Source: Vulcanimicrobiota bacterium | Lineage (GTDB): Bacteria; Vulcanimicrobiota; Vulcanimicrobiia; Vulcanimicrobiales; Vulcanimicrobiaceae | Assembly: GCA_963723515.1 (NCBI GenBank) | Contig: CAVRQT010000003.1 | Coordinates: forward strand, 672,001-736,000 | Length of the DNA: 64,000 nucleotides | Reading direction: 5' to 3' | In this document: piece by piece, positions 20,956-64,000 of the stretch | Layout: the number at the start of each line of letters is the position of its first letter | Numbering within the stretch: the stretch's first letter is position 1 | Translations under genes and position numbers: made by a program | Notes under the pieces: model-generated | Databases searched by the model: none | Seen by the model: the letters and a program-made list of their open reading frames with translations, nothing else | Told to the model about the DNA's origin: nothing

Positions 20956-21027
20956 CTGGGGCGGCTGGATTCGAACCAACGCATGCCAGATTCAAAGTCT
21001 GGTGCCTTACCGCTTGGCTACGCCCCA
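20956..21027 (-). tRNA. tRNA-Gln(UUG), CCA not encoded
   Basis: TGGGGCGTAGCCAAGCGGTAAGGCA-CCAGA CT TTG AA TCTGG-...GTTCGAATCC...GCCCCAG cloverleaf. Confidence 0.96.
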
Positions 21028-21792: not shown

Positions 21793-21810
21793 AAGAAGCT
21801 CCTCTTCCAA

Positions 21811-21935
21811 ACTACTTGCGGGGTTAGTTGACGGGTTCGGACGAGAAAGACTTGCCCTAGGGCCGACCGGCCCACTCACCCCTACCGGAGGAGTTCCCCC
21901 GCTCCACGTGCCCTAGGCACGCGGATTCAGTGACT
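21811..21935 (-). promoter_or_regulatory. c-di-AMP (ydaO/yuaA) riboswitch
   Basis: Minus strand reads CACTGAATCC...GGAGCGGGGAAC...GGGGTGAG...TAGGG...CCGAACCCGTCAACTAACCCCGCAAG, matching the conserved ydaO segments; directly 5' of the NlpC/P60 SD. Confidence 0.88.
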
Positions 21936-22006
21936 AGCTAAGCCGCCCGGGTTTACCGCGCAGGCGGCATCTCCTTCCCTTCGCTGGCATACGATGTGCG
22001 ATTTTC

Positions 22007-62122: not shown

Positions 62123-62180
62123 AGCATGCGTATTCTACGGCAGGCGCCGTCGACAACTTTACGACCTTACGAACCGCGGC

Positions 62181-62227
62181 AAAACAAAAAGCCCGCCGGC
62201 GTATCGCCTTGCGGGCTTCTCTTTGTT
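62181..62227. terminator. Intrinsic terminator of the rRNA operon (possibly bidirectional)
   Basis: AAAACAAAAAGCCCGC...GCGGGCTTCTCTTTG stem flanked by A/T tracts, immediately after 5S. Confidence 0.8.
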
Positions 62228-62347: not shown

Positions 62348-62715
62348 AACGGATCCCTCCGTCACGTCGAGCCGGAGCTCAAGACTGTGACGAAGGAAAG
62401 CTGCATACAGAAGAACTTTCAGTGCCAACGACACGAAGCGTTAAGTCAAATAAGTGTCCGGGCGATTAGTACCGGTTAGCTGCACACCTTGCGGTGCTTC
62501 CACCTCCGGCCTATCAACGTGGTAGTCTCCCACGACCCTTCACTCTTACGAGATCGAAGTCTCATCTTGAAGCCAGTTTCGCGCTTATATGCTTTCAGCG
62601 CTTATCTGATCCGAACATAGCTACCCGGCTATGCTCCTGGCGGAACAACCGGTTCACCAGCGGTTCGTTCGACCCGGTCCTCTCGTACTAGGGTCGACTC
62701 TCCTCAAACTTCTAA

Positions 62716-62764
<49 letters not shown>

Positions 62765-62772
62765 ATCGCGTA

Positions 62773-62809
<37 letters not shown>

Positions 62810-62833
62810 ACTACAGCCCCAGGATGCGACGAT

Positions 62834-62868
<35 letters not shown>

Positions 62869-62869
62869 G

Positions 62870-63168
62870 CAATCTGCAATCGCTTGCAGCCTAGACTATA
62901 TCTTCATCTCTTTCAAGAGCGTTGCGTCTTATGAACGCGATAGATTTTCGTGGCGCTTCAACAGCGTGACACGAACGCACGTTCATCCAGCACTTTCGCG
63001 CTGAGTCGTTACAGGGAAAAATCGCGTAGCATGCTTCGCAATGCGAAGTTTAGCCCGACAATAACGCCGGCGATTTTTCTTCCCTCGGTGTTGCCTGCTA
63101 TAAGAGGAATTTCACCGATATGAGCAACGAGTTTGCCATCCGATCGCTCGGATGGAGAGCCCGAGTGG
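62870..63168 (-). ncRNA. Group I intron (299 nt, no homing endonuclease) inserted after 23S U2473 (E. coli numbering)
   Basis: Exon ...CCCAAGAGU|intron...GAUUG|CCACAUCGAC; IGS GCUCU pairs with AGAGU via a U.G pair; P AUAUCGGUGAAA, Q AACACCGAG, R GUAACGACU, S AAGAUAUAGUC. Confidence 0.92.
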
Positions 63169-63343
63169 ACTCTTGGGGGAGATAAGCCTGTTATCCCCAG
63201 AGTAGCTTTTATCCGATAAGCGACGGCCCTTCCATTCGGTACCGCCGGATCACTTAGCCCTGCTTTCGCACCTGCTCGACCTGTCCGTCTCGCAGTCAAG
63301 CTCCCTTTTGCCTATACACTCTAACGAACGGTTTCTGACCGTC

Positions 63344-63413
<70 letters not shown>

Positions 63414-63669
63414 CATGTCCTACCGCCAGATAATGGCGGCTAGTTAGAATCCAGAAATTTTCAGGGTGGTATCCCAAGGTTGGCTCCGCGCGAGCTAGCG
63501 CCCGCGCCTCATCGCCTCCCACCTATCCTGTACAGAAAACTTCCGAACCCAAGATCAGGGTACAGTAAAGCTTCATGGGGTCTTTCCGTCCTGCCGCGGG
63601 TAACCAGCATCTTCACTGGTACTGCAATTTCGCCGGGATCCCCATCGAGACAGCGCCCAAGTCGTTACT

Positions 63670-63711
<42 letters not shown>

Positions 63712-63986
63712 CGCTTTTTTCCGGCGCTTTCACGCCGGAGCGGACTCTATCTTCATCCAGTAAGAGAATCGCGGACGATTCAACTCGTTTCTGGAGCTCA
63801 GCGTATAGTCTCTGAGGATCCTCCGCATCAACAGATGCGAAGTTTCCTGCGGATTGTCCAATCCCAAACCATTGTTACTGCTCGTTAATGCAAACGAACG
63901 AGTAGGTTGGGCTCTAAAGGATATTCCCGCATACAGCTGAGTTGATCGATCGCACGTTACCGCGCGACGAGGCAACGATTGTTGTC
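63712..63986 (-). ncRNA. Group I intron (275 nt, no homing endonuclease) at 23S site L1931
   Basis: Exon CCUAAGGU|GACAAC...AAAGCG|AGCGAAAUUCC; IGS GCCU; P UAUGCGGGAA, Q AAUCCGCAGG, R UCAGAGACUAUA, S AAGAUAGAGUCC. Confidence 0.95.
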
Positions 63987-64000
63987 ACCTTAGGACGGTT

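What the first reader, a model, noticed from the sequence alone, without database searches (positions are those of the whole stretch)
62870..63168. Group I intron at an unusual 23S rRNA position (after U2473, helix 89 loop)
Seen: a 299-nt insertion with a U at the 5' exon end, a terminal G, an internal guide GCUCU pairing with exon AGAGU, and recognisable P/Q/R/S core elements. Removing it restores ...CCCAAGAGU-CCACAUCGACGGGG. The first four intron bases (CCAC) duplicate the start of the 3' exon. Known: the commonly reported LSU sites include L1917, L1931, L1951, L2449, L2500 and L2593; I do not recall L2473 among them. It carries no endonuclease ORF, so it either lost one or arrived by reverse splicing (inference).
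Basis: partly seen in the sequence, partly recalled or inferred. Interest (0 to 1): 0.8.

Follow-up and report, generated by a model that had tools for sequence, protein, structure and literature searches.

The report
Group I intron in 23S helix 89
The 299-base interruption in this soil bacterium's only 23S ribosomal RNA gene is a genuine group I intron at an unusual spot (after base 2473), a copy of a widespread mobile intron that has lost its homing-endonuclease gene.

Summary
The 23S rRNA gene lies on the minus strand. It is interrupted by 299 nt (window 62870-63168) exactly between E. coli positions 2473 and 2474, in the helix 89 loop.

The insert has all the group I hallmarks:
- a U•G pair at the 5' splice site in P1;
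- a terminal G;
- helices P2 to P9 with a P3/P7 pseudoknot;
- a P7.1/P7.2 extension, which is IA-type and probably IA3.

On 52 homologous introns, 92.7% of cells pair and 39 of 71 pairs show changes on both sides. Rfam RF00028 scores only 24.2 bits, below its cut-off of 50.

The same intron sits at the same site in 9 of 60 relatives, in 86 loci of the species-genome collection, mostly Eremiobacterota and Dormibacterota, and in 116 metagenome contigs. At least 27 of those 86 loci carry an I-SceI-like LAGLIDADG_2 endonuclease gene in P6. ORF-less copies are deletion derivatives. So this copy lost its ORF and did not arrive by reverse splicing.

I found no paper that names L2473. A 2024 survey of CPR (candidate phyla radiation) bacteria may cover the site under an unnumbered label. 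It is a new member of a known kind, of moderate interest.

The parts
62870..63168 (-). Group I intron at 23S L2473 (299 nt). It has no ORF. It begins CCACUCGG... and ends ...GCAGAUUG.
   Evidence: LSU model insert; E. coli numbering; homologues at the same junction; RF00028 24.2 bits, E 0.0014, below the cut-off of 50.
63169..63173 (-). 5' exon strand of P1 (AGAGU; U2473 is at window 63169).
   Evidence: Pairs with the guide at 63156-63160. The U•G pair and three Watson-Crick pairs are invariant in 52 of 52; the fifth pair forms in 11 of 52.
63156..63163 (-). Internal guide sequence. 63156-63160 is the P1 3' strand (GCUCU). 63161-63163 is the P10 strand, which pairs with the first bases of the 3' exon (62867-62869).
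   Evidence: Read from the sequence. P10 pairs form in 51, 37 and 21 of 52 sequences, so P10 is weak.
63136..63155 (-). P2 hairpin: 8 bp with a GCGA loop.
   Evidence: 7 of 8 pairs change on both sides; 99.8% of cells pair. Also predicted by the minimum-energy fold.
63124..63128 (-). P3 5' strand (GUUGC). It pairs with 62921-62925.
   Evidence: 4 of 5 pairs change on both sides; 99.6% of cells pair.
63085..63118 (-). P4 (63113-63118 with 63085-63090) enclosing a short P5 hairpin (63094-63109).
   Evidence: P4 pairs in 98.7% of cells and P5 in 99.4%. In the window the P5 register is shifted relative to the MAFFT alignment (my reading).
63014..63084 (-). P6 and its extension. In long homologues this is where the LAGLIDADG_2 gene sits. 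Here only remnants remain, about 24 in-frame codons ending at the shared stop in CCCUGUAA.
   Evidence: The three base G-C pairs are conserved. blastn matches window intron 127-165 to the end of the ORF in L097 and L101. Deletion pattern.
63004..63013 (-). J6/7 and the P7 5' strand (UGUAACGACU), including the presumed guanosine-binding G-C pair and a bulged C.
   Evidence: All 5 P7 pairs are invariant in 52 of 52. The G-binding role is inferred from the general group I model (recalled).
62931..63003 (-). P7.1 (62988-63003, GAAA loop) and P7.2 (62931-62986, with an extra ~30-nt extension in this copy).
   Evidence: P7.1: 6 of 6 pairs change on both sides. P7.2: 6 of 9 do. Both are predicted by the minimum-energy fold. 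A P7.1/P7.2 extension is described for L2593 introns in PMC1995217.
62905..62925 (-). P3 3' strand (62921-62925) and the P8 hairpin (62905-62920, GAAA loop).
   Evidence: P8: 5 of 6 pairs change on both sides. In the window only the inner 4 bp form and P3 gains one pair.
62870..62904 (-). J8/7 and the P7 3' strand (GAAGAUAUAGUCU), P9.0, the P9 hairpin (GCGA loop), and the terminal G at 62870.
   Evidence: P9: 5 of 6 pairs change on both sides, and 99.7% of cells pair. The P9.0 pair 285:306 is G-C in 33 sequences and A-U in 12. All 86 collection loci end in G before the exon.
62446..64000 (-). Host gene: the 3' part of the only 23S rRNA gene found in the genome. The whole gene is 3630 nt and runs past the window end.
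   Evidence: RF02541 994 bits in the window. One full-length match in the 2.1-Mb, 4-contig assembly.

Best explanation
Window 62870-63168 (minus strand) is a group I intron inserted after 23S rRNA position U2473, in the loop of helix 89 beside the peptidyl-transferase centre.

Architecture: P1, P2, P3 to P9 with a P3/P7 pseudoknot, a P7.1/P7.2 extension, a short P5 and a weak P10. This is the IA type, most like the IA3 introns known at L2593 and L2500.

Proposed mechanism:
1. The guide GGCUCU pairs with exon AGAGU, placing U2473 in a U•G wobble.
2. An exogenous guanosine bound in P7 attacks after U2473.
3. The terminal G (62870) then takes the same pocket, and the freed exon end attacks before C2474.
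4. This restores the helix 89 loop sequence CCAAGAGU-CCACAUCGACGG.

The gene is the only 23S copy found and helix 89 is essential, so the intron must be removed and the exons ligated.

The element belongs to a mobile family that homes into this DNA site through an I-SceI-like two-motif LAGLIDADG_2 endonuclease encoded in P6. The window's copy has lost that gene by deletion. It is now immobile and vertically inherited.

Shown: the site, the structure, the covariation, the family and the endonuclease-bearing relatives. Inferred: the chemistry, splicing in vivo and homing.
For: Site:
- The LSU model shows a 301-nt insert in helix 89.
- Exon flanks align to E. coli rrlH 2412-2473 and 2475-2533.
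- The empty site CCAAGAGTCCACATCGACGG occurs in 12 of 60 relatives.

Structure:
- On 52 distinct introns (alignment A1, by MAFFT, not fitted to the structure), 92.7% of 3680 cells pair. Shuffles give 83.9% and slid partners give 36-43%.
- 39 of 71 pairs change on both sides, and 0 of 500 shuffles reach any of the five measures.
- P7 and the U•G pair are invariant in 52 of 52.
- The minimum-energy fold of the window copy alone recovers P2, P3, P4, P5, P6, P7.1, P7.2, P8 and P9 (-104.6 kcal/mol, z -2.76).
- RF00028 matches its full length (1-253) at E 0.0014.

Family:
- A related intron sits at the same junction in 9 of 60 relatives.
- The pattern scan found 86 loci of the species-genome collection, all ending G|YCAYATCGACGG, and 116 metagenome contigs.
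- There are 62 complete introns, 58 of them distinct, 254-846 nt long.

Endonuclease:
- The 184-aa L096 ORF matches Pfam LAGLIDADG_2 at 2.9e-33.
- Its best solved relative is I-SceI, at about 2e-11.
- 27 of the 86 loci give a tblastn hit to it.
- The reading frame is intact in 4 of 5 full-length long introns.

ORF loss:
- L077 (328 nt) matches L096 (821 nt) in blocks of 114/119, 22/24 and 159/163 identical bases, separated by two deletions.
- L012 and L088 show the same pattern against L097.
- The window intron aligns to the last codons of the ORF in L097 and L101.

Single rRNA operon: one RF02541 match in the assembly.
Against: - RF00028 scores 24.2 bits, under its gathering score of 50. By Rfam's own criterion this is not a called group I intron. 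RF00028 is known to miss IA3 and IB4 introns (PMC6125680, section 5).
- No subtype (IA3) model was available, so the subgroup rests on architecture alone.
- Splicing is not shown. Soil metatranscriptome contigs contain the joined form and none of the intron. But they are about 60 nt long and could come from intron-less relatives, so they are uninformative.
- In the window copy, P5 is weak and two outer P8 pairs are mismatched.
- P10 is only 2 bp.
- The assembly is 88% complete, so a second, intron-less rRNA operon cannot be fully excluded.
- 39 of 60 relatives showed neither the intron nor the empty site, so occupancy is known for only 21.
Confidence: 0.85

Rival explanations
1. The ORF-less intron reached this site by reverse splicing into 23S rRNA, followed by reverse transcription and recombination, and never carried an endonuclease gene.
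For: The window copy has no ORF. The guide needs only about 5 nt of exon complementarity, which is what reverse splicing requires. The CCAC repeat at the junction could be read as a trace of an imprecise integration.
Against: The same site is occupied by homologous introns that carry a LAGLIDADG_2 gene in at least 27 of 86 loci. ORF-less forms differ from ORF-bearing ones by two internal deletions within otherwise about 96%-identical sequence, in two phyla independently. The window keeps the end of the ORF and its stop codon. The CCAC start occurs only in the window and L082 among the 52 aligned introns.
Confidence: 0.05
2. The insert is a decayed intron or an intervening sequence that is cut out without ligation. 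The organism would then live with a 23S rRNA fragmented in helix 89, or the gene is a dead copy.
For: No RNA evidence from this organism. RF00028 is below its cut-off. P5 and P8 are weakened in this copy. Fragmented 23S rRNAs exist in bacteria (recalled; PMC11270868 section 5 mentions RNase III-cut intervening sequences).
Against: All catalytic-core features are conserved, and helices keep pairing through compensatory changes across 52 sequences. That implies selection on the ribozyme fold. Only one 23S gene was found. The intervening-sequence sites mentioned in PMC11270868 are 23IS2 and 23IS4, not the PTC-region group I sites.
Confidence: 0.05
3. It is a true group I intron but not self-sufficient: splicing in the cell depends on a host protein such as an RNA chaperone or a tRNA-synthetase-like cofactor. 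The endonuclease may once have doubled as a maturase.
For: Many IA-type organellar introns need protein helpers, and LAGLIDADG proteins can act as maturases (recalled; PMC11270868 introduction says homing endonucleases may have maturase activity). P5 is short, with no P5abc-like stabiliser. The window's P5 and P8 are weak.
Against: 50 of the 86 loci hold complete short introns of 254-451 nt; 49 of these give no endonuclease hit and L059 keeps a fragment. So an intron-encoded maturase is not required. The GNRA-type loops L2, L7.1, L8 and L9 and the P7.1/P7.2 clamp are the usual RNA-only stabilisers. Related bacterial 23S introns are reported to self-splice (a title in the reference list of PMC6125680; the paper itself was not read).
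Confidence: 0.2

Closest known systems
IA3-type group I introns at 23S L2593 and L2500 (cyanobacterial L2593 introns, Haugen et al. 2007, PMC1995217; archaeal IA3.1-IA3.12, Nawrocki et al. 2018, PMC6125680)
   Same: The host is the domain V region of 23S rRNA next to the peptidyl-transferase centre. The ribozyme has a short P2, a short P5 and a P7.1/P7.2 extension of about 65 nt or more. Copies occur with or without a LAGLIDADG gene. RF00028 detects them poorly.
   Different: The insertion site is 2473, in the helix 89 loop, not 2500 or 2593. The endonuclease is the two-motif LAGLIDADG_2 (I-SceI-like) type. Haugen 2007 describes single-motif enzymes in its bacterial LSU introns. That I-CreI sits at L2593 is recalled. 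Kinship of the ribozymes was not tested with a subtype model.
Yeast mitochondrial 21S rRNA omega intron with I-SceI (L2449; site and details recalled)
   Same: The endonuclease is of the same Pfam family (PF03161), and I-SceI is the best solved relative (E about 2e-11). It is also a group I intron in domain V of LSU rRNA, only 24 nt upstream.
   Different: The site and target sequence differ. The bacterial proteins are shorter: 184 aa from the called start, 197-220 aa of open frame, against 235 aa. The ORF lies in P6 here. Sequence identity to I-SceI is low.
rRNA insertion sequences of CPR (candidate phyla radiation) bacteria, sites 23IS9-23IS11 (Tsurumaki et al. 2024, PMC11270868)
   Same: [quoted passage not shown] The data set included the Woykebacteria contig MHDB01000041, which carries an 846-nt L2473 intron.
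   Different: The text gives coordinates only for 23IS6-8 (1917, 1931, 1952) and 23IS12-14 (2593, 2604, 2657). Whether 23IS10 or 23IS11 is 2473 cannot be read from the held text or supplement. The present family is mainly outside the CPR (Eremiobacterota, Dormibacterota).
Bacterial L1931 group I introns (Thermotoga, Simkania, Synechococcus; PMC1995217 Table 1)
   Same: The same 23S gene of this window also carries one at 63712-63986. Both are ORF-less here.
   Different: The L1931 intron scores 67.5 bits on RF00028, lacks P7.1/P7.2 in the Rfam alignment, and sits at a well-known site.

Membership tests
Group I intron (catalytic) | 5' splice site after a U that forms a U•G wobble at the end of P1 with an internal guide sequence | tested here: met
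   U2473•G is present, with three invariant Watson-Crick pairs, in 52 of 52 introns; window sequence.
Group I intron (catalytic) | Terminal guanosine as the last intron base | tested here: met
   G at window 62870. All 86 collection loci and all 62 complete introns end in G before YCAYAUCGACGG.
Group I intron (catalytic) | Conserved core: P3-P8 and P4-P6 domains with a P3/P7 pseudoknot, supported by covariation | tested here: met
   14 helices, 92.7% of cells paired, 39 of 71 pairs with changes on both sides, 0 of 500 shuffles as high, slid controls 36-43%.
Group I intron (catalytic) | Score at or above the Rfam RF00028 gathering threshold (50 bits) | tested here: not met
   24.2 bits, E 0.0014, full-length match 1-253. 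The P7.1/P7.2 and P6 inserts are unmodelled. Nawrocki 2018 reports no RF00028 hits for the IA3 and IB4 introns that subtype models find.
Group I intron (catalytic) | Guanosine-dependent splicing with exon ligation | not testable with these tools
   RNA contigs hold the joined form but cannot be assigned to this organism.
Subgroup IA3 | P7.1/P7.2 between P7 and P3', P2 present, short P5 without P5abc | tested here: met
   P7.1 has 6 of 6 pairs and P7.2 has 6 of 9 pairs with changes on both sides. The architecture matches the description of L2593 introns. The definition of IA3 itself is recalled.
Subgroup IA3 | Significant score on the GISSD-derived IA3 covariance model | not tested
   No subtype model is held. 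A model of my own of about 280 positions would probably exceed the calibration limit, so I did not try to build one.
LAGLIDADG homing-endonuclease intron (mobile) | Intact intron-encoded LAGLIDADG gene | tested here: not met
   The window copy keeps only about 24 codons. The feature is met in homologues: L096 matches PF03161 at 2.9e-33, 27 of 86 loci give a hit, and the frame is intact in 4 of 5 full-length copies.
LAGLIDADG homing-endonuclease intron (mobile) | Patchy distribution with occupied and empty alleles among close relatives | tested here: met
   9 occupied and 12 empty among the 21 of 60 relatives where the site could be read. Occurrence is scattered over genomes labelled as about 10 phyla (some labels may be binning errors).

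The most novel reading that the evidence does not exclude
L2473 (the helix 89 loop) is an rDNA homing site that has not been named in print. It is served by its own lineage of compact, two-motif, I-SceI-like LAGLIDADG_2 endonucleases whose target is the near-universal sequence CCAAGAGU|YCAYAUCGACGG. The element cycles between endonuclease-bearing, decaying and ORF-less states across soil phyla (Eremiobacterota, Dormibacterota, Acidobacteriota, Omnitrophota, CPR). This would make these little-known non-CPR phyla a second bacterial reservoir of rRNA introns.
Probability: 0.5. Interest if true: 0.5.

Novelty: new member of a known kind. Interest (0 to 1): 0.4.

Why it matters
- rRNA introns are rare in bacteria outside the CPR. 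Here a single 23S gene of an Eremiobacterota-type soil bacterium carries two, and one sits at a site absent from the usual lists.
- The family gives a compact natural example of the homing cycle. Intact, broken and deleted endonuclease genes occur at one site, with deletion end points defined by RNA stems.
- It offers an uncharacterised I-SceI-like endonuclease lineage with a new, highly conserved 23S target. Such enzymes are used as rare-cutting tools.
- Practically, the intron scores below Rfam's threshold. Annotation pipelines will therefore report an unexplained 300-800 nt insert, or a split 23S gene, in these phyla.

Tried and rejected
- RNA evidence. Four soil metatranscriptome runs from four studies were laid on window 62600-63400. 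A joint that skips exactly 299 nt (4-nt ambiguity) appears in all four, and no contig covers the intron. The contigs are about 60 nt long, and 12 of 60 relatives have the same sequence without an intron. So this cannot show splicing in this organism, and the missing cover proves nothing.
- Literature on the site. Searches for L2473, 2473, 2474, 'helix 89' with group I intron, Eremiobacter with intron and 23S, rrl with 2473, and lists of L-sites gave no paper on an intron at this position. The library lacks most subscription papers and the CRW and GISSD tables, so this is not proof.
- PMC11270868. I tried to read the coordinates of 23IS9-11 from the text and the supplement PDF. They are given only graphically. 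23IS10 and 23IS11 stand next to the '2500' tick.
- Earlier notes of this scan: nothing on this genome or this sequence, only introns at other sites.
- Viral contigs: 0 matches to the junction pattern.
- A covariance model of the family was considered. It was not built because alignment A1 has 487 columns (the limit is 400) and I expected a model of about 280 positions to exceed the calibration limit.
- The CCAC repeat as a target-site duplication: rejected, because it is not shared by homologues.
- (E. coli collection search with the exon) returned odd small records as top hits. I used the annotated K-12 rrlH gene instead.

Full report
**What is there**

Rfam places a bacterial 23S rRNA on the minus strand of window 62446-64000 (994 bits, cut by the window end), followed by a 5S rRNA. 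The whole gene is 3630 nt. It is the only 23S match in the 2.1-Mb, 4-contig, 88%-complete assembly, and it forms a 16S-23S-5S operon.

The LSU alignment has two large unaligned inserts: 276 nt near helix 71 and 301 nt in helix 89. I aligned the exon flanks to rrlH of E. coli K-12, whose annotation one search confirmed. The 62 nt before the second insert align to positions 2412-2473. The 60 nt after it align from 2475, after one mismatched base at 2474.

On the minus strand the junctions read ...CCCCCAAGAGU | CCACUCGGGCUCU ... GCAGAUUG | CCACAUCGACGGGG.
- The exon ends in U and the intron ends in G.
- GGCUCU pairs with AGAGU.
- The first four intron bases repeat the exon's CCAC.
- Deleting the insert gives CCAAGAGTCCACATCGACGG, which occurs uninterrupted in 12 of 60 related genomes.

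The CCAC repeat leaves four possible boundaries on this sequence alone. Homologous introns start CAAGUUGGGCUC, CAAUUGGGCUC or UCUUGAUGGGCUC, so the boundary is after U2473. The repeat is peculiar to this copy and one other, L082.

**Is it a group I intron?**

RF00028 matches the insert over its whole length (model 1-253), but only at 24.2 bits and E 0.0014. Its gathering score is 50. By Rfam's own rule it is not called. The alignment shows why: about 75 nt between P7 and P3', and about 50 nt in P6, are not in the model.

I therefore tested the fold by comparison. I collected 62 complete introns from the same site (58 distinct). I aligned the window copy with 51 of the distinct ORF-less ones using MAFFT (A1, 52 rows). 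The six copies over 400 nt (L059, L085, L096-L099, L101) were left out for length. I drew the group I structure on the window sequence, projected it onto the alignment columns, and counted:
- 92.7% of 3680 cells form standard pairs, against 83.9% for shuffled partners and 36-43% for partners slid by 1-3 columns.
- 39 of 71 pairs show changes on both sides.
- None of 500 shuffles reaches any of the five measures.
- Pairs with changes on both sides: P2 7 of 8, P3 4 of 5, P7.1 6 of 6, P7.2 6 of 9, P8 5 of 6, P9 5 of 6.
- P7 and four of the five P1 pairs, including the U•G wobble, never vary.
- P4 varies on one side only. The distal P6 pairs and P10 are poorly supported.

The minimum-energy fold of the window copy alone gives the same P2, P3, P4, P5, P6, P7.1, P7.2, P8 and P9 (-104.6 kcal/mol, z -2.76).

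P7.1/P7.2, a short P2 and a short P5 are the features that Haugen et al. describe for L2593 introns (PMC1995217, passages). Nawrocki et al. class L2593 and L2500 introns as IA3, and report that RF00028 found none of their IA3 or IB4 introns (PMC6125680, section 5). I call this intron IA-type, probably IA3. No subtype model was available to test that.

**The family and its endonuclease**

The window intron finds relatives in 9 of 60 related genomes. For seven of them the junction was read and is the same.

I then scanned one genome per species for a pattern built from the P7 strand and the 3' exon. It found 86 loci, all ending G|YCAYATCGACGG. By record title most are Candidatus Eremiobacteraeota (WPS-2) and Dormibacteraeota. 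Single or few records are labelled Omnitrophota, Acidobacteriota, Bdellovibrionota, Ignavibacteria, Gammaproteobacteria, Eisenbacteria, Chloroflexi, Streptosporangiaceae, Woykebacteria and Saccharimonadales. Some of these MAG labels may be binning errors: the Saccharimonadales and Streptosporangiaceae loci have the Dormibacterota-type exon. The same pattern finds 116 metagenome contigs and no viral contig.

G016, of the window's own family, has an intron identical to that of a record titled Eremiobacteraeota. From this I infer that the window's organism belongs to that phylum.

Breakdown of the 86 loci:

| Class | Loci |
|---|---|
| Complete short introns (254-451 nt) | 50 |
| Longer, with a tblastn hit to the intron ORF | 27 |
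| Longer, without a hit | 1 |
| Cut by a contig end | 8 |

Five long introns were read in full (794-846 nt). The L096 ORF (184 aa) matches Pfam LAGLIDADG_2 at 2.9e-33 over the whole domain. Its best solved relative is I-SceI, at about 2e-11. It has two LAGLIDADG-like motifs (my reading). More than 300 unnamed homologues exist in metagenomes. The frame is intact in L096, L097, L099 and L101. It is broken at the N-terminal end in L098, and only a fragment remains in the 451-nt L059. The ORF sits in P6, and its stop codon lies in the core sequence CCCUGUAACGACU.

**ORF loss or reverse splicing?**

Pairwise alignments show that ORF-less L077 (328 nt) matches ORF-bearing L096 (821 nt) in three blocks, with 114 of 119, 22 of 24 and 159 of 163 identical bases. 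The blocks are separated by two deletions (about 132-545 and 570-658 of L096). L012 and L088 relate to L097 in the same way in Dormibacterota.

The retained middle block lies inside the ORF. It forms a stem with the ORF's end, so the deletions removed loops and kept stems. Two matching insertions that build one continuous homologous ORF, twice over, are not credible. Repeated loss is.

The window copy aligns to the ORF's last codons in L097 and L101. It keeps an in-frame string of about 24 codons ending at the shared stop. It is a burnt-out copy of a homing intron, the end state of the gain-decay-loss cycle. The patchy distribution fits this: 9 occupied and 12 empty sites among the 21 relatives that could be read.

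**How it most likely works**

The steps are inferred from the standard group I pathway. P1 presents U2473•G, and guanosine bound at the invariant G-C pair of P7 attacks. The terminal G replaces it, P10 (2-3 bp) helps align the 3' exon, and the exons are ligated. This restores helix 89.

L2, L7.1, L8 and L9 are GNRA-type loops, the usual tertiary clamps. Since 49 of the 50 short copies give no endonuclease hit and persist, no intron-encoded maturase is needed. A host cofactor cannot be excluded.

Direct RNA evidence was sought. Four soil metatranscriptomes hold the joined sequence and none of the intron. Their 60-nt contigs cannot be told from the rRNA of intron-less relatives, so splicing remains inferred. 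It rests on the conserved fold and on the gene being the only 23S copy found.

**Novelty**

Bacterial endonuclease-bearing rDNA introns were listed at L1917, L1931, L1951 and L2593 in 2007. Archaeal ones were listed at 1923, 1931, 2500 and 2593. My full-text searches found nothing on an intron at 2473 or 2474, in helix 89, or in Eremiobacterota.

The 2024 survey of CPR (candidate phyla radiation) bacteria, PMC11270868, reports group I sites 23IS9-11 as new for bacteria. It gives coordinates in its text only for 23IS6-8 and 23IS12-14. Its tree includes the Woykebacteria contig that carries an L2473 intron. One of its sites may therefore be this one; I could not see the figures. The CRW and GISSD tables are not held.

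The kind of element, an rDNA group I intron with a LAGLIDADG gene, is thoroughly known. What may be new is the site, the I-SceI-like endonuclease lineage tied to it, and its abundance in two non-CPR soil phyla.

**Verdict**

It is a new member of a known kind, with interest about 0.4.

Noticed in passing
window 63712-63986 (-): A second ORF-less group I intron (275 nt) lies in the same 23S gene, after E. coli U1931. RF00028 scores it 67.5 bits, above its cut-off. L1931 is a well-known site. So this single 23S gene carries two introns.
   Followed up: partly
window 21797-21942 (-) and 20956-21027 (-): A c-di-AMP (ydaO-type) riboswitch scores 74.7 bits and a tRNA scores 68.2 bits. Neither was examined further.
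   Followed up: no
window 63014-63084 (-): The P6 extension keeps an open string of about 24 codons, in the frame of the lost endonuclease and ending at the family's shared stop codon. It includes a VIVG piece that resembles the first LAGLIDADG motif region of L096. It is probably non-functional debris.
   Followed up: partly
window 62931-62986 (-); also L046: P7.2 of the window copy carries an extra ~30-nt arm. In alignment A1 only L046 shares it.
   Followed up: no
L004 and L065 (alignment A1, columns 51-81): Two introns have an additional ~30-nt hairpin between P2 and P3, a P2.1-like element absent from the other 50.
   Followed up: no
L097 3342-3575, 3609-3819, 6586-7335; L098 552-720, 3837-4057, 4067-4330, 6248-6489: The rRNA operons of a Dormibacterota genome and an Omnitrophota genome that carry the L2473 intron hold several more RF00028 matches. 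These include two side-by-side matches in the 23S gene and matches in or near the 16S gene. rRNA genes with many introns therefore seem not to be confined to the CPR.
   Followed up: no
Exon position 2474 and guide bases, alignment A1 columns 18-20 and 476-478: Dormibacterota-type hosts have U2474 (exon UCACAU) and a guide reading GUGG, where Eremiobacterota-type hosts have C2474 and GGG. P10 seems to shift register with the exon change.
   Followed up: partly
L002 1234-1277 (= just downstream of the 5S gene, window ~62180-62222): A weak match to ctRNA_p42d (25.9 bits, below its cut-off of 50). It is probably just the operon's terminator hairpin.
   Followed up: no
G007 (one contig, 97% complete, same family): This apparently closed genome shows neither the empty site nor a BLAST-detectable L2473 intron. 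Its helix 89 region may differ or may hold a diverged insert.
   Followed up: no
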